Positions 50,482-64,000 of a stretch of DNA of 64,000 bases are shown here, piece by piece. The notes under the pieces are model-generated. The model ran no database searches, was not told the origin of the DNA, and saw nothing but the letters and a program-made list of their open reading frames with translations. The position numbers were made by a program, and so were the translations under genes. Origin of the DNA: Flaccisagitta enflata (lineage: Eukaryota); assembly GCA_965153355.1 (NCBI GenBank), contig OZ231126.1, forward strand, positions 42,160,001 to 42,224,000, given 5' to 3'. How positions within the stretch are numbered: position 1 is the first letter of the stretch; each line of letters opens with the position of its first letter.

Positions 50482-50740
50482 CAGTCACTTTAAAAAATCG
50501 CCCTCTCCTCTCTCTCTACAGGGTGTATCAAGTCTTTTGCTCTTTAAGGAATCGACATATCTTTTCTCCTAGAAATGCTAATCCAATTCTGAAAAAAGGT
50601 CTGAATAGATCTTGAAGTGCAGTTTTTTTAAGTCACCAATTTTTTATATCTGCGCATTTAAATATGCCCACTATGTAAGTTTGAAGAAAACAACCATATT
50701 CAGCCTGCATCTTTAATCTGGATAACTTTGGCATAAAAAA

Positions 50741-51074
50741 ATTCTTGAGTCTTATATTGAAAATTGGACGGCTAAAGAAAGGAAACAAGGTAACATATTG
50801 GTAAAAAAAGAAGATTTAGATTTATGGAAAAATGAGATACTAAGAGTAGTAGACAACAAAATAAGTCGAGGTAAAACTTTATTTAAAAGGACCTGGTCGA
50901 AAAGATTAGATGGTAGTCTAGCCACAGAATTGGCAAGATTGAAACAGGATTTTGTCATTACTGTGGCAGATAAAGCTCAAAATAACATTTTATTCACTTG
51001 TAAATATTTTTATATAAAAAACTTAAAGGAAGAATTGACACGACCAGGTCAATTAACCTATCAATTGTCAAATA
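50741..51074 (+). CDS. Penelope-like (Naiad-type) retroelement RT ORF, 5' part; 5'-truncated and interrupted by a DNA transposon
   Basis: Open frame ILESYIENWTAKERKQ...LKQDFVITVADKAQNNILFTCKYFY...TYQLSN. The ADK(A)xNN motif is typical of the region just N-terminal of PLE RT cores. The frame runs into the transposon TIR at 51075. Confidence 0.85.
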
Positions 51075-53201
51075 CACTCAAAAAAAACTTTTTTTTTCTA
51101 ATAATTATAGCAAAAAATTATATCAATCGCGGACGAAATTATACCACATAACAATTATATCGATATTATATCGATATTATATCGAAATTATAATTTTTTT
51201 ATCAAAATTATATCGAAATTATATCGAAATTATATCGAAATTATATCGCAGTGGTGCCATATGGTCAATATAACAGTTTTATTCAACCAATATAACTGTT
51301 TTAAGACAACTTACAACAATTATATTGATAATTATAATAATTATATTTTGGATTATCTAATAATTATACCATGAGCTATAATAGTTAGATCCCAAAATAT
51401 AATAATTATATTTGGTCCGGCGAGCTTAAAAAAAAAACCCAGGCTGGGCACCTGCTTCGAGTAAAATACTCGAAGCAGGTGCCCAGCCTGGGTTTTTTTT
51501 TAAGATCGCTGGACAAAATATAATTTTATCAAAATACTCGAAACAGTGAATTGAAAAAGTCGCATAACAATAAATGGCGCCAATGACAAATTTGTGTACA
51601 ACGTGGTGCATTGTATGAACATTAACACTTTGAATGACGAGAACGAAGCCGTTTCGAAACACTTTCCACCACTGGCACATCAGCTAACTAAACTTATCAA
51701 AACAGACAGATTCTAGATAACGAAGCCATGGTAATCGCATGAAATGTTGAAGCGGAAAAGAAATGGAATTAAACAAAGGGGAGTTTTATTTTTATACAAA
51801 CAAAACAATTGTTACAAGAAGTTACATTTCTTTGTGGGACAAATGAATGTATTTGGCAGGCGTTTTATTGCGGAATGAAATAAACCATAATATAACTGTT
51901 TTATTGCAGTTTTACGCGTGAAAAACTGAGCATTTTGCGACTCTCTCGGGCCATATACTTAAACAAGGCCAACACCTATAAGTCGCGTGCAAGACTTACA
52001 GACTTAGAATGACTTAGAATGACTTTGAATGACTTAGAATGACTTAAAATGACCAAAAACAACTTAAAATGACTAAAAAACCTAATAACCAAAAATGACT
52101 TAAAATGACTTAGAATAACTTGAAGTGACTTAGAATGACTCAAAATGACTTAGAATGACTCAAAATGACTTATAATAACTATTAATGACTTTAAATGACT
52201 TAAAATAACTTAAGAAATGATGTTATATTGTAAAAAAGTAAAGTGTGACGGACCGACGGACCGACGGACGGATGGACCGACGGACGGACCGACGGACGGA
52301 CCGACAAAGCGGGTTGCAGAGTCGCGTAGCACGCGACTAAAAATTGGCAAACGTTCCGGCCGGATCTAACAATTATAATCAGGTGTACGTTGGTGTTGTG
52401 CGGCGGTAAAAAAAGCTCGTAAGATCTAACTATTATAATTAGCGTTACTATGGTTTTATTAAGGCCTAAGAAAACGTTCGCCGGGGATCTAACAAATATA
52501 CTCGACCATTGCCAGTCGGGCTCGCCCCTCACAATTTGACAGAGCCCGAGACAAAAACCTTGAGCCCGGTAAAAATGTTATGCCAAATTTTACAATCATA
52601 TCAGCCTAGATTTGTAAAAGTAGCCAATGACTAAATGGTATAATGATAAAATAATCACTACAAAGATGATTCAGTTTGTGAAAGAAATCAAAAAAATAAA
52701 AAACGACTGAAAACTTGATGATTTTTCAAATATTTAACTCAATCAGCTTGAGCACTTTGAATCCACCCCATTAATGACAGAGAGCCAGCCGGGCTCAGAG
52801 CTTGCAAAACATGAGAGCCCGAGAGCAAAATAGAGAGCACCGGGCTCGCGGGCTCGCTCTAAAATCAGGCCTGATTATACGCCTATTCTACCGCGCACGC
52901 CTTTCCTCGCCTTCCTCAGCGTGCTGTCCATTTTCGTTCTCAGCGTCGATCGAGATTCGTTTTTGCGTCGTCCTTTTGTCCAATTTCGTATTTCCGGCAC
53001 TTGCGCTGAGCTTCCTCGTATCTCGACTGTGGAGAGGATTCTCCGTCGATTCCGATCGTCTTTTTGCGCAAAACGCGTTTTTTGCGCATAACTCGTTTTC
53101 CGCTCGGCGCTCCTTTTTCTCGTCTAGATTTGGTGTCTCCTCTCATCCTGGTCGTTGAGTGGTGGTCGCTGGATATTTTTGCGTTAACAAAGTAGTTCAC
53201 A

Positions 53202-53238
<37 letters not shown>

Positions 53239-53575
53239 AGCTAAATGAGCTAAAATACTCAAAAACGCCCTCACAGATGAAAACCCGTTTCTCTCGAATA
53301 TGTCAAAAAGTCGAAGACTGACTTCGACTTTTTTCCCGATAATTAGCGTTACTATGGATTTATTAAGGCCTAAGAAAAATTTCGCCGGGGATCTAACAAA
53401 TATAATTGGCTCGACCATTGTTTTTCGCGATTGTTTATACACGCTTTTCATTTTATAAGAACATGGATTTCTGAAGTGAGCCTCAGCGTTCTTATTTTTA
53501 GCCCCATTTTGAGGCTCAACTGTTATTAACATTGGTCTCCTTCAAGGCCTATTCTGACCCTAATTCTGCCAAATA

Positions 53576-53911
53576 CCGTATTTTCTCTAAAAAGCGCCCC
53601 GGGCGCTTTTGAAATTGAAATATGACTTTACTTTTTAACCCTCCAATTAGCGCCCCCTTTATATTGTACGTGAACTGTTATTGAGTCTTTTCTTTTTCAT
53701 GAAAGGCTAGCAAATTGCTAAATTTGAGTCAAAATGAATATATTCATTGCATATCTGTCTGAAAATCTTTGAAAATGGTTCATTGTGTTGTATTATTTTA
53801 TCATGTTACTAAATATTTCTGTCCAAATCTCTTCTGTAAAGTGTAATATCAAGAAAAAAAGAGGAGGGGGGCGCTTTTTGGAGGGGGGGGCGCTTTATGG
53901 AGAAGATACGG
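53576..53911. mobile_element. Tc1/mariner-like MITE nested in the large transposon
   Basis: TA|CCGTATTTTCTCTAAAAAGCGCCCC ... GGGGCGCTTTATGGAGAAGATACGG|TA. Confidence 0.8.
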
Positions 53912-54680
53912 TAGCCCAAATCCAAGCAATATGGCCCAAATCTAAGCGAAATGGCCCAATTCCAAGCATAATCGCCCTAATCCAAGCAAAATGGCCCAAA
54001 TCGTTTTAGGAGCTAAAGCTCTGCAAATAAAAGCACTATTTTGCTAAAACCACAACGATACACAGACAGACTAAGACTGAATAACAAGAATCGCACAAAA
54101 CAATGCTCGAGCCGATTATATTTGTTAGATCCTAAGCGAACGTTTTCTTTATCGCATGTAGGATCTAACAATTATACTACCCTTTGCCTATGTAAACTGC
54201 CTAAGTCCTAGTAACATATTACTACATAAATAGGCTATTATCTCATAAACTAGGCTTCAGATTTAATTTGAATTTTGCAGGGGCTGTTTAATTAATATCC
54301 CTTACTTGTATACCAACTAAAAAAAAATTCACATAACTTTACTACCCTTTGCCTATGTAAATCGCCTAAGTCCTGATAACATATTACTACAAAAATAATA
54401 GGCAAAGGGTAGTAAAAGTTTATGAATTTTTTTGAAAATTGGTACACAAGCTCCTATTGACCTATAAACAACACCAGCAAAGTTTCATAAAATTCTGAAG
54501 TCTGGATCCAAAGTTATGAGAAGGTTTTAAACAACAAACAAACAGACTACACGATCACTGCTATCACATAGTCACCGACGAAAACTGTTTGTCGGGGACA
54601 AAAAATAAAATAATAATGGCAGAATGACATACAGTTGAACCTCGCTCTAACGGATTTCAGGGCAGATGCAGAAATAAAGA

Positions 54681-55145
54681 AGTTGGATTTTCGGTTTTCG
54701 AAACGCCCCCACGTTTTTTAACGAGTAAGAAGAAGACGATATCCGATGGAGCTGAAATTTTTACCGTATGATGTCCCTGCCCAGGGGCAGCTCTGTGCAA
54801 AATTTCGTCGAAATCGGCCCAGTGGTTCAGGATTTATAAGCGGCCGAAGTTGACATGCGTTCGGCGAAAAAGTTGGATTTTCGGTTTTCGAAACGCCCCC
54901 ACGTTTTTTAACGAGTAAGAAGAAGACGATCTCCGATGGGGCTGAAATTTTTACCGGATGTTGAGCCTGCCCAGGGCCAGCTCTGTGCAAAATTTCGTCG
55001 AAATCGGCCCAGTGGTTCAGGATTTATAAGCGGCCGAAGTTGACATGCGTTTGGCGAAAGAGTTGGATTTTCGTTTTTCAAAACGCCCCCACGTTTTTTA
55101 ACGAGTAAGAAGAAGACGATCTCCGATGGGGCTGAAATTTTTACC
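54681..55145 (+). repeat. ~190-bp tandem repeat, about 2.4 copies
   Basis: GTTGGATTTTCG...AAACGCCCCCACGTTTTTTAACGAGTAAGAAGAAGACGAT recurs at ~54682, ~54872 and ~55062. Confidence 0.9.
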
Positions 55146-57505
55146 AATTTGTAGCGAGGTATAAAAGCATTGGTATGACTCCAAAGTCCAATGTTATTAA
55201 AACACAATGTTATAAAACACACAAGTCTTTTACCCTCGATTAACTTCCATAGACAGGGTCAGAGGCAGGGGCCTCAAGTCCATGGGTACCCCTGGGGGTA
55301 CTTATGATGCACAGGGGCTAGTAGCCCACGCAGAATAAAACACAAAGTCAAATCAAGGCCTTAGCCTTATATTCAATCAATAATAAAACGAGAGAGCAAC
55401 AGCTATAGGCTTGTAGCCTAAAAATTACCGAACCATGTGGTTGTGAGATGCGGCTGCGTTGACAGGAGGCTGCAGAGTCTCGTCGAGGGTGTTGACGATG
55501 GCGTGAAGTAAGAAGGGTCTCGTGACGTCGAGGAAGTGTTGTTTGAGTTTGTTGTTGGCGTCTCGAGTTCGTGGCCTTCTTGTTGATGAAGCAGCAGCGT
55601 CCGGAAGCAGCAGCAGCTCGTCGTCGAGGATGATGCTTCAGCAGCGTGGACGAGGTGATGCAGAGAGTTGATGAGGACGTCGAGGGTTCGGTAAAGGTGT
55701 CCACAAGACGAATCTGGTGTCTCTATAGTCGGTTGTTTAGGCGTGGTGGACGTCCGAAATTGACGACGCGAATAGCGATTTTCGAGCGATCCGAAAGGGC
55801 ACTTCCGGTTGGCGTAGAGTCACGAAATTTTCAGGGGTGGTAGACGGACCCTTGGAGTGTCTTCAGTTCAAATTTGGCGATCGTGGGACGACTCCTTCGA
55901 GTTCTCGATCAAATTGAAAATATGGGCGGTTTTCGAAGTCAAAAACGAGGATTTTTCCGCCGAGGGAATTTTCCACCTTCCCGTAGTTGCAATTCGATGA
56001 GCTTTGGAATGAAGCTAGTAGAGGTGCTGTAGTAGTTGGGGTTCAAATCTCGTGACGATCGGTTCGCAGGTTGAGCCGCAACAGCTCGTCGAAAACGAAG
56101 TTCGAATGGGCGCTGTTCGAAGGTTGAAAAAGAGTGGATTTCTTCTTTTCCTTCGCGAAGTGGGCGAGTTGTGGACGCTGAAGCGGCTCGTGGAGAGGCT
56201 GGAGAGGCTCGTGGGACGTCGTGGATCCACTGGAGATGCTCGTGGTCCCGTGTATTGGCGGCTCGACTCGATCACATGCGGAAGTAAGACGGGAAGGAAA
56301 ACAGCATGAGTAAGAGACAAATATGTTTGAATGTCTGTCGAGTTGGTCAAGGAGGTAAATGAGTGTTAAATATATTGTTATTTCACTCTGTAACCGGCTC
56401 ACCCAATGGAGTGGGTGCGTTTGCTGGCACCGGAATCCTCCTTAACGCCAAATCCCACAGGCAGTTGGATTCCAGCTTCGCCTGAAGCAGCTCCCGAGGC
56501 CAGCCAAGCTTCAGGACTCCTCTTCTTAGAAATGGACGAAGATAAGCGAAATTGATGTTGAAGTTTGAAGGCGAAACGGATGCGATTTCGACGAGCGACT
56601 GCGGCCGAATGCGTGAAGATATCTTGACAGATTTTGGTGTGGAGATGCCTGAGGACCTCCTCTACGATATCCAACCGTCCGTTCACGATTCATTCATTGT
56701 TTCTGGGGTCAAATTCGCGATCTCGTCGAGGGCCATCGGCGGTCCGAAGGCGAAGAATGGCGAAGGCGAAGCGGATGCGTTTTTGACGAGGTGCTGCGCC
56801 CGAACCGTTTGAAGCGGGGTGCTGATTTTTGGTACAAAGTTGCCTCTGTACCTCTTCTACCACGTCCCACCGTCCGGAGGTCTCAGCTCGACGAATTCGA
56901 TGCGAGAATGAAAGGCCCGTGGGGGGGCCTACGGAGCTCCGGAGGCGAATTTTCGATTGGAAAGAGTGGACGAAAGTATTGTTGTTGACGGCTCGAGGGC
57001 GTCCTCGTGGGCGCTGTCGTCGTCTCCACGCGATGTCAGAAGGTTGGAGAAAGTGACTAGTACTTCTTTTTGTCTTTTAGTCGGTAAAAATTTTTTTACC
57101 GGTAGCTCTGTGTGAAATTTCATCGATGTGGGCCAAGTAGTTTAGGATTTGTGGCCGACCGAAGTTGACTTAAGTTCGGCGAAGAGGATGCGGATTGAGC
57201 GACTCGACGAGGTGCTTGGGGGTCGAGGGTGTTGTTGCTGCTTGGTCTGTCGGTAGAGGGGACCTTGCTGCTGCTTTACCTCGATTCCCAGCTCGATTGG
57301 CGAAGAAATGAGTTGTTGAGCCGCAGTCAAAGTCGGTGGATGCGGAGGCTCGTCGACAGCGATGTTTGAGGGCTTCCACGAGCTGTTGGACGAGAGTAAT
57401 CGTTGCAGTCGCGGTTGGAGCACGTAGTGGTCGACCTGATGTACGTCTGTAGCGATTTGGTTGACGATTGGACTCGAACTCCGCGCTGTAGAGTCGTTTG
57501 AATGT

Positions 57506-58020
57506 GGCGGCGGCGGCGGTTCGTCGAGGACGCGATTAGGATGCGGTTGGCGGGAGACTGGAAGTTCGAGGCGCCGTTAATCGAGTTAGTTCATGTACCC
57601 CTAAGTGTCCTCCGCCTTTTCCCCGCATTTGCCGATCCTGAGTGTCGTGGTGCCGGAGCTAGACGTTGTTGTTGCTGTGGGCGGCGGCGGTTTGTCGGAG
57701 GCGCAGTTGGGATGCGGTTGGCGGGCAGCTGGAGGTTCGGAGGGCCGTGAATCGAGTTGGTTCATGTACCCCTAAGTGTCCTCCACCTTTTCACCGCATT
57801 TGACGATCCTGAGTGCCGTGGTGCCGAAGCTAGACGTTGTTGTTGCTGTGGGCGGCGGCGGTTCGTCGAGGACGGGATGCGGATGCGTTTGACGACGGAC
57901 TGGAGGCTCGTGGCGTCGCAGATCGAAGTGGTTCATGTACCCACAGTTGTGCTTCACCTTTTTGCCGGATTTGACGATCGTGGGTGTTGTACAACCGAAG
58001 TTATATGTTGTTGTCGCCGA
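57506..58020. repeat. GC-rich ~171-bp tandem repeat, 3 copies
   Basis: GGCGGCGGCGGTT(C/T)GTCG...GTTCATGTACCC...TGTTGTTG units at ~57506, ~57680 and ~57851. Confidence 0.85.
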
Positions 58021-58051
58021 TGGTGTTTGCCTCTGGCGGCTTCTCACAATG

Positions 58052-58785
58052 CACTATGTTCTGAGAGCGACTCAAAATTGGACAAAAATCATCTGATAGA
58101 TTTCTTATGTTTTAATGTTGTAAAATTACATATTATATATAAAAAATAATATTTTTTTTATTTTTTGCCTTTTTTGTTATTTTTTTTTAATAGAAAATCA
58201 CAAGAATAACCAAAATGACTAAGATACCTGATATGATTAAAATGACTAAAATGATTAAAATGATTAAATTAACTAAAATGACCAAAATGACTTAGATGAC
58301 CAAAGTGACTAAAATGACCCAAATCACAAAAAATCACAAAAAAACACAAAAATGACAAAAATGACAAAAATTAAAAAAAAATGACAAAAATGACAAAAAA
58401 TGATAAAAAATGACAAAAATGACAAAAATGACAAAAAATGACAAAAATGACAAAAATGACAAAAATGACAAAAATGAAAATAAATGACAAAAAATGACAA
58501 AAAATGATAAAAATGACAAAAATGACAAAAATGACGAAAATGACGAAAATGACAAAAATGACAAAAAATGAAAATAAATGACAAAAAATGACAAAAATGA
58601 CAAAAATGACAAAAAATGACAAAAAATGACAAAAAATGACAAAAAATGACAAAAAAATGACAAAAATGACTAAAAAGGAAATAAATAATATTTTTTCGAA
58701 ATAATATATAAATTTACAGTATTATAACATAATAAATCCATCAGATAAATTTTGTCCAATTTTGAGTCACTCTCAGAACAAAGTG
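58052..58785. mobile_element. Transib/RAG-like MITE with RSS-like TIRs, nested in the large transposon
   Basis: ~46-bp TIRs starting CACTATG and CACTTTG. 5-bp TSD CAATG at 58047-58051 and 58786-58790. The interior is largely an (AAAATGAC)n-like minisatellite. Confidence 0.88.
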
Positions 58786-60530
58786 CAATGAGGCCAAGTC
58801 AGAGGTTCCTTTACACTCGATATTTTTGGGCCATTGTTGCTTGACAACAGTGTTTTTTGGAACACGTATGATGCTCCGCTCGCCTTCGGAATTCGTACGG
58901 AAGCTTCTCCGGTGGCGGCGGCGGCGGCGGTGTGAAAATGTCCGCTCGCCGGCCGCGCCGTTTGATGATAAACGCGGATCTCTATAGGCTGTCCAGCCGG
59001 GCCGTTCGTCGTTCGAATATCGGTGTAAAATGCGAGAAATCCGGGTCTCTAGCAAGCCGCAAAACAGTCACGATATGGATGTTACGCGCGCGCGATTCGG
59101 CACTTGATAAGTAGGGGTAAAATCGGTAATAAGGATGTAAAGAAAGCCAACAAGACAAAAATGCGGATACTCCCTCAAAACCTTATCAAAATGAGCGCAA
59201 AAATGAGTACAAAAATGGGCATGAAAATGAGCATGAAAATGGATATGAAAATGAGCACGAAAATGACAAATAACAATGATATCTAGATGATAATTCATGA
59301 GCGCCTCCAATATTCATCTCCGGCGAGGTCATTCAAAAGACCATTCATAAGTCCGTTCACGAGGCCATTCACGAAGCTATTCACGAGGCCATTCACGAAG
59401 CTATTCACGAGGCCATTCACTAGGCCATTCATCAGTCAGCTCGTAAGGCCATTCATATAGGATGAGTCATTCGTGAGTTATTCATCTCCTCCGCCATTCA
59501 TTCATCACCTCCTTCATTCATTCTCCTCGTCCTTCATTCATTTCCCGTTCAGTCATATAAATTCATTCTCCTCCGTCATTCACGGCGTCGACCGTCCAGC
59601 ATCTTCGCGTTTGCGCTTCTCCAACGATTTTGGGGCACGAAAGCCGAGTCCGTCCAAAGTTAGCTTGGTGAAGGGTGCGCAGCATCCCCACCAGGCGTGA
59701 ACAAATTTTACACAATCGTCGAATTTTTGCTGCAGTACGCTGGGCGTGCTGCGCTGCCGCTCGAAAAACGTTTACGAATCTGGAAAAGGGGGGAAAAAAA
59801 GAATTAGTCCAATACAAAAACGGGCAGCATCCCCAACAGGCGCGAACAAATAATTGTAAAAATTTTACGCAATCGTCGATTTTTTGCTGCGGTCCGCAGC
59901 AGTACGCTGGGCGTGCTGCGCTGCCGCTGTTGCCTAATCTGCGGCGAGAGGAATTTCCGTCATTGAACAAAAGAGCAACCTTCTGGGTGTTCTTGGAAAA
60001 ATGAAATGGTCGATAGGTGTCGTATTTCGGCGTTGTCTTTTTTGTACGAAAAAGAACAATTACATGACTGTCTATTTTGTTAAAGTGGCTGTACGTTATA
60101 ATCGTTATAGTTTAGAAAACTCTGTCGCCAAAAATGGATTGCATTTTTACTAAAGTTTTTCCACAATCTAATTATAATACTTCAGATGTCTCTAACGCGG
60201 GAAAAAATGAGCATTTTGCGCAACTCTTTCGGACCATATACTTATTATATTGCGAAAACACTTTGATTTTTGGTGAGACTTAATGTTATGGCACTTTATG
60301 AAAAATCGCGAAGTAAAAGTGATATAAAAAATATATTAATGAATCCAGATTTTTTAGGCTAGCTTCAATATGATATAATTAAAATATTCCACTGTTTTCC
60401 GGCAAAATGGGTGGGATGAAATATAATTTCGATATAATGACTGTATAATTGTTATGTCATATAATTTCGTCCGCGATTGATATAATTTTTTGCTATAATT
60501 ATTAGAAAAAAAAAGTTTTTTTTGAGTGTA

Positions 60531-61717
60531 AGGGACAAAATGATATTAATAAAGATATAATTAATTTTTCAAAATGCAAGGGTATTAAAGTTCCAGAGAA
60601 TATGGGAGACCTGCCTCTGATATATTGGATACCCAAAATGCATAAGAATCCAATAGGCAGTAGATTTATTGCAGGATCCAAATTTTGTTCAATCAAGATG
60701 CTCTCAAAATACTTTTCTAAGGCTTTGAAATTAATTTTACATCATATGAAGCTATATAATAAAACAGTTTTTGAGAGGACATGTTTGAATTGTTTTTGGA
60801 TTTTGGATAACTCTTTAGAATTTTTGGAAAAAATAAAATCTGAAAGGATAAACCATATGGAAACATATGATTTTTCCACTCTATATACGGCCTTGCCTCA
60901 TGGAGAAATAAAACGTAAATTTTCAGCTATTTTTCAGAAAGTTTTTAATAGGGAGGCAAGGCCATACATAAGTGTCAATATGAATGAGGCTTATTTTAGT
61001 CCTACAAAGGCTAAAAATAAATTTTCATTCAGATCGGCAGACATGCAGGAAATTTTAGAATTTATATTGGATAATATTTATGTAAAATTTGGTGCAAATG
61101 TATATAAGCAAGTGATAGGTATTCCTATTGGTCTTGATTCTGGACAGGATATTGCTAATTTACTTTTATATAGTTATGAATCAGACTATGTGGGTGAAAT
61201 TTCTAAGGTAGATCTTCCGACAGCAAGGAAATTTAAGCTTAATGGAAGATATATTGATGATCTTTTTGTAGCTAATTTTCCAACCTTTAGGGATCATATC
61301 TATGAAATATACCCTCAAGACCTAGAAATTAAATTAGAATCTAATAATACCCAGGAAGTAACATACTTAGACTTAAAAATTAAATCGGAAAATTCTACTC
61401 TAAATTTTTCTGTCTATGATAAACGTGATGATTTCTCTTTTGATATTGTCAATTTTCCCTACATAGACAGCTGTATACCAAAGAAATCAGCCTTGGGTGT
61501 TTATTTAAGTCAATTGATAAGATATGCTAAATTGTCATCTAAATATGAAGATTTTTTACAAAGAAGCAGATCTTTGGTTGATAAACTAAAGACCCAAGGC
61601 TACAAAGAACATGATTTAAAACGACTAACTTCAAGATTTTTTAGGGAAAAACATGATATTCTAATAAAATATAATATTCCTAATACAGATGATTTTTTGA
61701 AAAATATATTTGAATAA
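60531..61717 (+). CDS. Penelope-like (Naiad-type) reverse transcriptase, 3' part (RT core and thumb, no C-terminal endonuclease)
   Basis: RT motifs IYWIPKMHKNP-SRFI, TYDFSTLYT, YKQVIGIPIG, YIDD, YLDL, VYDKRDDF. Open from 60533 (GQNDINK...) and in frame with the 50798 fragment once 51075-60530 is removed. Stop at 61715-61717 with no GIY-YIG domain following in the same ORF. Confidence 0.95.
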
Positions 61718-63042
61718 AATTTTGGTGGGAGGCTATGAGAATCTTTTGACCCACTTGTCGCAGACCATAGCCAAACACCATCTTAGTTTTAATATAGTCC
61801 CTAAATTTTGGTGAAAGGCTGTGTTTCTCTTGACCAACTTGTCGTAGTTACATAGCTGGACACCTTTTGGGAAATTTTAACACTTTTCTAAAATAATATT
61901 CATATTTTAATATAAGTGTTTCTATTTTGACCTTGTGTCGCAGATTCACTTTATCTTCTTATATAAAAAAAATATTTTTAACATATGTGTTTCTATTTTG
62001 ACCTTGTGTCACAGATTCACTTTTTCCTGAAAACAATTTTTAACTGGTGTCTAAAATGACTAAAGAAAAAAAATAATTTTTCCTATAATAAAGGATTTTG
62101 AAATTGGTTGGGAGGAAGCCATGATTTTCAATCCCATGGCCGATTCCTGATGATTTTCTTGATCTCTTCAAACCAAACAGTGGAGGGCACTTTGTTGAAG
62201 TGCGACCCGCCTGTACTTGGGTCTTGGAGGTGTATATATATGTATGTGGATACTTTTGTATGTATATATGTATATATATATGGGTCGAAACCCTTTAAGG
62301 TACAGGACTCCAACTGATGACCAGAAGCTGTATGGTTTGATAGTTTTATAAAAAAAATTTTTGGACATGTACTAAAACTTTTTTACCCTTCATGGTGACC
62401 TATCATCCCATGATATATCTTCTTTGAAGATGAAGGCCTTTTTCCCTTTAATCACTAAAAATCATAACCATAACCATATATAGTATAAATTCTCCTAAAT
62501 CCCACCCCCCTAATTAGGATAAAGGGGCTCAACTAGGGATATGGACACCTTGGTTCCCTTTTTCAATTAGGTCAACTTTAACCAAAATTGGGCTGAGTTG
62601 ATGGTCCCGATCAATGCCAGAAGACAGCTCTAACAACACCCTTTCCCTAAAATATTCATTATTTCTAAATAAAATATTTAGATATTCATTTTTAAGATAG
62701 GAAAATATGACACATTTAGTAAAAAGTATATGCCTAAGGAATTTTGTTAGTGTTTCAAAAGACCACAGATTAGGTATGTATGTGTATGTAATGGAAGCTT
62801 ACACTATATAAATGTCCATATCTTTTCCAAATTTTGTTCAATTTCTGTTTCCTTTTGATTAATTGTATGAGTTTTATATAGGATAAATTGTTGCACAAGC
62901 CACATAGTTTAGTGCCTTGGTATAGAATGTCCGGCGGTCCCATTTGGTGACTCTCGATTCTTGCCTTTAGGGCATGGTTTCTTTCAACAGTATTATAACT
63001 GTAATACAAAATATTGTAACAAATCTTTATTCCTCAACAATT

Positions 63043-64000
63043 ATGGCGAACGAAACTTTAATAAAAAAATGCAATGGGCGATCCTGTGGTACGTGTCCAT
63101 TTTTAGAAGAAAAAAATTGTTTTCATTCAAATTCTACAGGACAAAGACATAAACCTTTAACAGCAGATCAGGATTTTCTAACTTGTAAATCAGAAAATGT
63201 TATTTACATGATTTATTGTCAGGTTTGCAATATTCAATATATAGGTGAAACTAAACAAAAGTTAATAAGAAGATTTAGTAATCATAAGACTAACATAAAT
63301 GGTAAAAAGTCAGGCCAAGTTGTTCATAAACATTTTGAAGAAAGTGGCCATGGCATTTCCAATCTTAGAGTAATTCCCATAGAAAAAATAGATAAGAATA
63401 ATGTTAATTTGCGAGGCTTAAATGAAATCCAGAAGGATAAGGCAATAACTAAATACAGGCTAGAACGTGAGAAAATTTGGATTTCAAAATTGCAGACTGC
63501 TTATCCCTTTGGATTAAATATTTCTGTCAAAGGGGTCGGTGACTTTAATGTTTCCCAGGGACTGTACCAAAATTTTGAAGGACGAAAAAGGAGAAAAAAT
63601 AAAAAACATTCTAGAAGAAAACCAAAAAGGTTAAGAAATAACAATGATATATCTATGGATTTTTTAAAAAGAAAACATACTGAGCTTAGAGATAAAGATA
63701 ATTATATTCATTTCTTTAAAACCTTTTTATATGGTCTACCTAGACAACAGTTACAAACATTACAAAATAATGCAAGACAGGATAATATGATAGATGATAG
63801 ATTAAGAGATATGATAAATATGATTTCCCACCAGAAATTATTTAAACCAGTCCAAACTAATATAAAGAAGGATAGAGATTTTTATCATATTCAATTTAGA
63901 GACAAAGGACTGGATCATATCAATATAAGCCAAATACTTAGAAATAAAAGTGTCACAGATAAGATTCCAATTTATTTTACTGATAAGGAGCCTCCTATAA
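63043..64000 (+). CDS. N-terminal GIY-YIG endonuclease ORF of a second Naiad-type PLE copy (runs off the window end)
   Basis: Hand-translated with no stop from ATG 63043 to 64000: MANETLIKKCNGRSCGTCPF...TCKSENVIYMIYCQVCNIQYIGETKQKLIRRFSNHK...HKHF...RLEREKIWISKLQTAYPFGLN...FRDKGLDHINISQILRNK...IPIYF. Contains VIY/YIG motifs, CxxC plus His residues, and the R, E and GLN motifs. Confidence 0.93.
   Translation, partial: MANETLIKKCNGRSCGTCPFLEEKNCFHSNSTGQRHKPLTADQDFLTCKSENVIYMIYCQVCNIQYIGETKQKLIRRFSNHKTNINGKKSGQVVHKHFEESGHGISNLRVIPIEKIDKNNVNLRGLNEIQKDKAITKYRLEREKIWISKLQTAYPFGLNISVKGVGDFNVSQGLYQNFEGRKRRKNKKHSRRKPKRLRNNNDISMDFLKRKHTELRDKDNYIHFFKTFLYGLPRQQLQTLQNNARQDNMIDDRLRDMINMISHQKLFKPVQTNIKKDRDFYHIQFRDKGLDHINISQILRNKSVTDKIPIYFTDKEPPI

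What the first reader, a model, noticed from the sequence alone, without database searches (positions are those of the whole stretch)
58047..58790. MITE whose ends look like V(D)J 23-RSS signals
Seen: the left end is CACTATG + exactly 23 nt + ACAAAAATC (58082-58090); the right end (reverse strand) is CACTTTG + 23 nt + ACAAAATTT; the TSD is 5 bp (CAATG). Established: the RSS consensus is CACAGTG-12/23-ACAAAAACC, and Transib and RAG-like transposons have CAC-heptamer ends and 5-bp TSDs. The left nonamer matches 8/9 at the canonical spacing. Inference: a Transib or RAG1-RAG2-like transposase with a symmetric 23/23 end architecture has been active in this genome.
Basis: partly seen in the sequence, partly recalled or inferred. 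Interest (0 to 1): 0.7.

Follow-up and report, generated by a model that had tools for sequence, protein, structure and literature searches.

The report
Small non-coding Transib transposon, riding passenger
This is a small, dead jumping-DNA element of the Transib group, whose ends resemble the signals used to shuffle antibody genes; that resemblance is real but is already a known trait of this group, so the element itself is ordinary.

Summary
Observation confirmed: a 734-bp element (58052-58785), CAATG duplicated on both sides, heptamer-23-nonamer ends (left nonamer 8/9, right 6/9). It is a non-autonomous Transib. Relatives show exact 5-bp duplications in 28 of 31 insertion groups. An intact 5,239-bp element on another chromosome encodes one 741-aa Transib transposase, no RAG2-like gene, and its 3' end matches the MITE end at 37 of 39 bases. 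Two corrections: the MITE is symmetric because it is two copies of the 3' end; and this copy is one old insertion carried inside a 9.5-kb CACTA-like element copied at least 31 times. RSS23-like ends on both sides are the published norm for Transib (PMC1131882); the scan noted a similar element in another genome. More unusual, and unlinked to the MITE: three same-strand RAG2-like/RAG1-like gene pairs elsewhere in this genome.

The parts
58047..58051 (.). Left target-site duplication CAATG
   Evidence: 5-bp length confirmed on other insertions
58052..58058 (+). Left heptamer CACTATG (5/7 to RSS, CAC kept)
58059..58081 (+). Left 23-bp spacer
58082..58090 (+). Left nonamer-like block ACAAAAATC (8/9 to RSS)
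58052..58191 (+). Left arm: copy of the 3' end of the autonomous Transib (87% over the first 106 bp)
58192..58675 (+). Non-coding interior of 9-10-bp tandem units, an expansion of the subterminal repeat of the right arm; length varies between copies (element 464-1039 bp)
58646..58785 (-). Right arm: second copy of the parent's 3' end (82% over 123 bp)
58747..58755 (-). Right nonamer-like block ACAAAATTT, decayed (6/9 to RSS, 2 changes from the family sequence)
58779..58785 (-). Right heptamer CACTTTG
58786..58790 (.). Right target-site duplication CAATG
51075..60528 (.). Carrier: 9,454-bp element with CACTC ends, about 108-bp inverted repeats (94%) and a 2-bp duplication (TA here); CACTA/EnSpm-like by its ends only, no long ORF

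Best explanation
The element is a non-autonomous Transib (cut-and-paste DNA transposon) made of two copies of the 3' end of an autonomous Transib. A Transib transposase supplied in trans bound the ends, cut at the CAC and inserted it with a 5-bp stagger into a CAATG site. The transposase most likely reads each end in two parts as RAG1 does: the catalytic core on the heptamer, and an N-terminal GRP-motif domain on the A-rich block 23 bp away, which is why spacer length and nonamer are kept while spacer sequence drifts. Shown: ends, duplications, partner, conservation pattern. Inferred: two-part binding, and the fold-back origin of the symmetric form. This copy inserted once into a 9.5-kb CACTA-like element and has since been copied only as cargo.
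For: Exact 5-bp duplications in 28 of 31 insertion groups, none at 3, 4 or 6-9 bp; 6 of 6 for symmetric MITEs; duplications 56% G+C. Partner L168: 5,239 bp, 5-bp duplication, one 741-aa ORF, HzTransib E 7.8e-50, model Z 34.2, rmsd 3.4 over 470 residues to HzTransib, motifs with D311, D420, E658 and RGRPNK at 120. Its 3' end matches the MITE's left end 37/39 and 86/100. Five distinct ends in gap-free register: heptamer 0.77, spacer 0.37, nonamer 0.80, next 23 bp 0.27. A sister Transib (64% protein identity) has the identical heptamer and nonamer at 23 bp with 11 of 23 spacer bases changed. In 10 ends found through their other end: nonamer 0 changes in 90 bases, spacer 9 in 230. Cargo: 24 of 24 loci share the flanks at median 99.9-100%; 26 full-length matches of the right flank, 4 older copies and L109.
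Against: The partner's 5' end differs from the 5' end of the 3-kb non-autonomous family (15 of 39 changes; about 71-74% in shared 5' stretches), so the exact parent may be a relative of L168 that is lost or was missed. The ends compared are related by descent, so the 0 of 20,000 shift result is not a probability. The sister's 5' nonamer is degenerate (CCAAATATA) and spaced 24 in a second copy. Another Transib of this genome with a GRPKK motif has candidate ends without a nonamer (L165, one candidate pair), so motif and nonamer do not always go together. The model is weak over the putative nonamer-binding part (pLDDT about 42-70 in residues 121-200); it aligns to the RAG1 nonamer-binding region in only some chains, at high whole-chain rmsd (9-15). 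No empty carrier was found in 5 of 5 candidates checked, so this site's duplication is not proved against an empty site.
Confidence: 0.9

Rival explanations
1. The ends are moved by a RAG1-like/RAG2-like complex. The genome has three RAG2L-RAG1L pairs; two RAG1L carry a GRPK motif and none shows a CCHC tail, the layout that needs a nonamer, so they might act on these RSS23-like ends.
For: Pairs at C3:97.7, C4:29.9 and C8:38.4 Mb; RAG1L match amphioxus RAG1L at E 7.7e-26 and 9.8e-29; RAG2L profile's top structure is amphioxus RAG2L, E 5.5e-10.
Against: No MITE-type end within the 20 kb held around the C3 pair; no end pair with a 5-bp duplication in 1.9 kb upstream and 2.5 kb downstream of the C4 pair; the C8 flanks were not examined beyond 0.7 kb. 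A single-gene Transib carries the MITE end almost exactly and falls far from RAG1L in the tree.
Confidence: 0.05
2. The element is Transib, but the nonamer-like block is only part of an AT-rich terminal repeat and has no special role; the match to the RSS is coincidence.
For: The window's right nonamer has decayed; within the family most of the first 39 bases are conserved, spacer included (15 changes in 851); one sister end and one other family lack a good nonamer.
Against: Between families and between the two ends of one element, the spacer diverges while the block stays in exact register; the best-conserved 9-mer windows after the heptamer start at positions 30 and 31. The decayed right nonamer sits in a cargo copy that need not be cut.
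Confidence: 0.15
3. The element belongs to CACTA/EnSpm or Chapaev (CMC), as its left end begins CACTA, or is simply an internal part of the large CACTA-like element.
For: Left end CACTA; it lies inside a CACTC-ended element and most close copies are in that setting.
Against: Duplications are 5 bp, not 2-4; five further symmetric insertion groups and 25 asymmetric groups lie outside this carrier; the end belongs to a Transib-coding element.
Confidence: 0.02

Closest known systems
Non-autonomous Transib families (TransibN1-N3_AG, Hopper/Kodama) and the 21-family Transib end consensus of Kapitonov and Jurka 2005 (PMC1131882, passages)
   Same: CAC heptamer, 23-bp spacer, A-rich block ending AAAAATC, 5-bp G+C-rich duplication with a CAWTG-type preference, about 700-aa partner; the paper says most families have RSS23-like ends.
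   Different: Made of two copies of the 3' end rather than by internal deletion, as Kodama is (bioRxiv 10.64898/2026.08.26.747230, passages); N1-N3_AG are 12/23, this family is 23/23; this copy spreads as cargo.
HzTransib (PDB 6PQN/6PQX); Subgroup II Transib of Tao et al. 2022 (PMC9435367, whole main text)
   Same: Same catalytic core (E 7.8e-50, Z 34.2); single gene; GRP-motif region, which Tao et al. report in both Transib subgroups; no CCHC tail visible in the partner's sequence.
   Different: About 200 residues in front of the part aligned to the solved structure; a charged insertion near residues 500-530 shared with its closest relatives. Subgroup placement not tested against their reference set.
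V(D)J 23-RSS and RAG1-RAG2
   Same: Heptamer-23-nonamer layout, CAC and the two key nonamer adenines kept, 5-bp duplication; partner model aligns to RAG1 core at Z 20-24.
   Different: No 12-bp end, no RAG2 in the element, ends face inward on a mobile unit, no sign of programmed rearrangement.
RAGL transposons (ProtoRAG, RAGL-A/B; PMC7204232 and PMC10462144, passages)
   Same: CAC ends and 5-bp duplication.
   Different: No RAG2L, no A-rich block at positions 8-10, no CCHC tail in the partner.

Membership tests
Transib superfamily | 5-bp target-site duplication | tested here: met
   28 of 31 groups exact, 2 with 4/5, 1 without; partner also 5 bp
Transib superfamily | Ends start with CAC; RSS-like heptamer-23-nonamer layout with nonamer positions 5-6 AA | tested here: met
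   Both window ends and six family or sister ends; definition from PMC1131882
Transib superfamily | G+C-rich target sites | tested here: met
   56% G+C over 28 duplications against 30-54% in 2-kb bins of the window; no genome-wide figure
Transib superfamily | Autonomous partner with about 700-aa DDE transposase related to known Transib | tested here: met
   L168, 741 aa, E 7.8e-50 to HzTransib, Z 34.2; shares the end 37/39. Pfam gave no hit
Transib superfamily | Nick-hairpin cleavage of these ends by that transposase | not testable with these tools
   Needs biochemistry
RAGL (RAG1L-RAG2L) transposon | RAG2-like gene inside the element | tested here: not met
   No kelch ORF among 14 ORFs of 80 aa or more on both strands of L168; two RAG2L queries do not hit L168 or any MITE-family locus
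RAGL (RAG1L-RAG2L) transposon | A-rich block at end positions 8-10 and CCHC tail in the transposase | tested here: not met
   Positions 8-10 read TTC, CTC or GGC; no such motif in the partner's C-terminus; definition from PMC7204232
MITE | Short, non-coding, terminal inverted repeats, duplication, independent insertions | tested here: met
   734 bp; 6 independent symmetric insertion groups, all with 5-bp duplications
MITE | High copy number through its own transposition | tested here: inconclusive
   Only 6 independent sites seen; most copies are cargo of two carriers; searches give lower bounds
CACTA/EnSpm or Chapaev (for the MITE) | 2-4-bp duplication | tested here: not met
   5 bp
CACTA/EnSpm (for the 9.5-kb carrier) | CACT ends, inverted repeats, 2-bp duplication | tested here: met
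   TA, AG, CA in 3 of 3 copies with both ends shown; 2-bp duplication for animal CACTA in PMC4298943 (passages), there with CCC ends; CACT ends recalled
CACTA/EnSpm (for the 9.5-kb carrier) | Partner with a CACTA transposase | not tested
   No search made; the carrier has no ORF of 200 aa or more

The most novel reading that the evidence does not exclude
The genome holds both a family of natural 23-RSS-like ends and three RAG2-like/RAG1-like pairs in an unusual same-strand order, two of them with the GRPK nonamer-binding motif and none with a CCHC tail, as in vertebrate RAG1. The boldest reading not excluded is that these pairs recognise heptamer-23-nonamer ends of this kind, so that an invertebrate-type RAG complex works on Transib-derived signals, a living model of the 'Transib seed' or 'guardian' idea. 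The pairs themselves are well supported; the link to the MITE ends is not.
Probability: 0.05. Interest if true: 0.85.

Novelty: new member of a known kind. Interest (0 to 1): 0.3.

Why it matters
The element itself changes nothing: RSS-like Transib ends have been known since 2005. Its use is as a test set. An intact Transib with a GRP-motif domain, two ends with different spacer sequences but the same 23-bp register, a sister family, and natural 3'/3' derivatives allow a direct test of whether a Transib reads the nonamer as RAG1 does; the solved HzTransib chains begin after this region. The case also shows that copy counts of a MITE can come from a carrier. The same-strand RAG2L-RAG1L pairs found on the way deserve their own study: in the papers read, that order is reported only for the alga Aureococcus.

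Tried and rejected
Pfam RAG1 (PF12940) found 2 fragments and missed the partner; Pfam gave nothing useful for 4 Transib ORFs. The first RAG1-like loci (C2:32.2, C2:76.3, C3:97.7, C4:79.5, C6:12.7 Mb) have no MITE-type end within 10 kb. The large GRP/CCHC Transib family (L130-L154) showed none in the stretches held. No long MITE-ended copy (up to 18.5 kb; L090-L129) had RAG1-like or partner-like coding sequence. A 12-bp-spacer end was looked for in 28 unpaired left ends; the 10 with a candidate other end all had 23. Empty carrier: none in 5 of 5 candidates. The automatic grouping merged different sites and was redone, where one group still joins two sites (L095, L126). The structure model of the RAG2-like ORF had mean pLDDT 35.8 and was not searched. 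Sequencing runs: no RNA holder listed for the partner; 0 reads of about 6% of one RNA run lay on the C3 RAG pair, with no control stretch, so no test. A paper search on fold-back origin of MITEs returned 0. The tree has no named Transib or RAG reference except one beetle protein and has long branches meeting, so it was used only to show that the partner is not RAG1L. The organism was not determined.

Full report
Observation. The sequence is as described. The element runs 58052-58785 between two CAATG. The left end is CACTATG, 23 nt, ACAAAAATC; the right end, on the other strand, is CACTTTG, 23 nt, ACAAAATTT. Matches to the RSS are 5/7 and 8/9 on the left, 5/7 and 6/9 on the right. The arms match 90/106 and 116/140. 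The interior is a 9-10-bp tandem repeat in one direction. The end motif has 2 matches in the window against 0 in 100 shuffles, and 68 exact matches in the 794-Mb genome against 0 for the control.

This copy is cargo. The 24 best genome matches have the same flanks as the window, at median 99.9% over 950 bp on the left and 100% over 410 bp on the right. The shared stretch is a 9,454-bp element, 51075-60528, with CACTC ends, inverted repeats of about 108 bp (94%) and 2-bp duplications: TA here, AG and CA in the two other copies whose both ends were shown. The right flank has 26 full-length matches; four older copies and L109 carry the same insertion, with heptamer CACTGTG: at least 31 copies of one insertion. 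No empty carrier was found in 5 of 5 candidates. A second symmetric insertion, at CGAGG, is likewise repeated with its flanks (10 rows, some the same locus fetched twice).

The family. Many left-type ends had no inverted partner nearby. For 10 of 28 examined, the other end was found by the duplication: a different sequence, CACTGAC or CACTTAG, 23 nt, CCAAAAATC, closing elements of 2.7-6.2 kb. That end has 39 matches at up to one mismatch. Over all loci held then, 77 paired ends fell into 31 insertion groups: 28 with an exact 5-bp duplication, 2 with 4 of 5, 1 with none, and none exact at 3, 4 or 6-9 bp. Six groups are symmetric MITEs, all 5 bp; 25 are asymmetric. One group joins two different sites. 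Duplications are 56% G+C and 11 of 28 read CNNNG. None of the long copies codes for a transposase.

The partner. A RAG1 profile found two fragments; stepping through their relatives gave 99 matches. Of ten loci then examined with flanks, one (L168, C2:47.30 Mb) is a complete element: 5,239 bp, CATTG duplicated, one ORF of 741 aa. Its 3' end matches the MITE's left end at 37 of 39 and 86 of 100 bases, and both MITE arms match that same end (87% over 106 bp, 82% over 123 bp). Its 5' end is CACTGAG, 23 nt, CTAAAAATC. The 3-kb family shares 5' stretches with it at about 71-74%, so L168 is a close relative and not certainly the exact parent. The protein matches HzTransib (E 7.8e-50); its model (mean pLDDT 76.2) matches HzTransib at Z 34.2, rmsd 3.4 over 470 residues, and RAG1 at Z 20-24. 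D311 and D420 are invariant in 23 aligned sequences, E658 lies in the aligned third motif, and RGRPNK stands at 120. The element has no RAG2-like ORF. Only one copy of this transposase was found; the next are 64-65% identical. Database relatives are unnamed proteins at 43-62% and one beetle protein at 29%.

Is the nonamer real? Five distinct ends (family 3', family 5', partner 5', sister 3', sister 5') align without gaps. Mean pairwise identity is 0.77 in the heptamer, 0.37 in the spacer, 0.80 in the nonamer and 0.27 in the next 23 bp; no cyclic shift reached 0.80 (0 of 20,000 at that window, 0 of 3,000 at any), but the ends are related, so this is not a probability. The sister's 3' end keeps heptamer and nonamer exactly while 11 of 23 spacer bases differ. 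In 10 ends found without selecting on them, the nonamer has 0 changes in 90 bases, the spacer 9 in 230, the heptamer 3 in 70. Against: the sister's 5' nonamer is degenerate and spaced 24 in a second copy, and another Transib here with a GRPKK motif has candidate ends without a nonamer.

Mechanism. Shown: ends, duplications, partner, conservation pattern. From established knowledge: Transib and RAG cut by nick and hairpin and insert with a 5-bp stagger, and RAG1 binds the nonamer through a GRPR/K domain (PMC10462144). Inferred: the partner's GRP region reads the block at 23 bp. The model gives weak support: residues 116-205 align with RAG1 385-459 in some chains, at low confidence. Also inferred: the symmetric MITE arose by inverted duplication of a 3' end, with its centre near 58191, followed by growth of the subterminal repeat. 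A possible starting point is an inward-facing, degenerate copy of the 3' end that lies just behind the ORF in the partner, two sisters and one 3-kb copy; but both MITE arms resemble the true end more than this site.

What is known. Kapitonov and Jurka (PMC1131882; passages) give the Transib end consensus as CACAATG, 23 bp, AAAAAAATC, with 5-bp G+C-rich duplications, and say most families have RSS23-like ends and a few 12/23. Yakovenko-type review PMC8355894 (passages) shows symmetric Transib ends. Tao et al. (PMC9435367; whole main text) report a GRP-bearing domain in both Transib subgroups. MITE-like Transib derivatives are described (bioRxiv 10.64898/2026.08.26.747230; passages). Also seen as passages: PMC7204232, PMC10462144, PMC4411706, PMC4298943. 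No supplement was opened. I found no report of a Transib MITE built from one end twice, but only searches 59 and 101 touch that.

Found on the way. At C3:97.71 Mb a kelch ORF with a cysteine-rich C-terminus lies 161 bp upstream of, and on the same strand as, a 984-aa RAG1-like ORF with a RING finger. The first matches amphioxus RAG2L as top structure hit by profile (E 5.5e-10) and RAG2 clusters at 0.95; the second matches amphioxus RAG1L (E 7.7e-26). Two more RAG2-like ORFs (41% and 38%) are each followed in the same order by RAG1L: an open 960-codon frame with KRGRPKK on C4, and one with GRPK and a frameshift on C8. All three end without a CCHC tail in the frames read. Contigs of one DNA run cover both C3 ORFs without differences, perhaps the same sample. 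Tao et al. name Aureococcus as the only element with this order; searches showed no other, and their supplement may. No ends were found for these pairs and nothing links them to the MITE.

Verdict. Real, correctly read as Transib, and ordinary: a new member of a known kind, interest 0.3. The labels 'CACTA-like' and 'Penelope-like' rest on ends and motifs, partly recalled.

Noticed in passing
L085:40-4934 (G000:C3 97.706-97.711 Mb); L184 and C4:29.920-29.925 Mb; L183 and C8:38.377-38.381 Mb: Three diverged RAG2-like/RAG1-like pairs, RAG2L directly upstream of RAG1L on the same strand, under 200 bp apart. C3 and C4 frames are open; C8 RAG1L has a frameshift. C4 and C8 RAG1L have GRPK; none shows a CCHC tail. 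No ends found. This order is reported only for Aureococcus in the papers read. Likely more interesting than the MITE.
   Followed up: partly
window 51075-60528: 9,454-bp non-coding element with CACTC ends and 2-bp duplications, in at least 26 nearly identical copies, carrying the MITE and other repeats (about 190-bp and 171-bp tandem units, G+C-rich middle). Its transposase was not sought.
   Followed up: partly
window 50726-51074, 60529-61717, 62971-63999: The carrier splits a reverse-transcriptase-like frame; a GIY-YIG-like frame follows. Penelope-like by motifs recalled; Pfam gave no matching family for the 403-aa frame.
   Followed up: no
L168:3030 (minus strand); equivalent sites in L170, L171, L093: An inward-facing degenerate copy of each family's own 3' end lies just behind the transposase ORF, 0.5-0.95 kb from the true end, so the 3' part looks like a built-in MITE.
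   Followed up: partly
L130-L154, L165-L167, L172-L173: The genome is rich in Transib: several lineages with open frames of 717-791 aa, one with a GRP-like motif and a CCHC-type tail, and series of short matches that suggest intron-bearing relatives.
   Followed up: partly
L026, L027, L030, L066, L080, L092, L096, L099, L102: A second symmetric MITE insertion (CGAGG) repeated with its flanks, so also cargo of a larger repeat; L102 lies next to an HSP70-like frame (by eye).
   Followed up: no
L128, L129 (G000:C3 51.27-51.30 Mb): Two 3'-type ends pointing away from each other in an inverted duplication of over 6 kb, with a different interior and no other end within 10 kb.
   Followed up: partly
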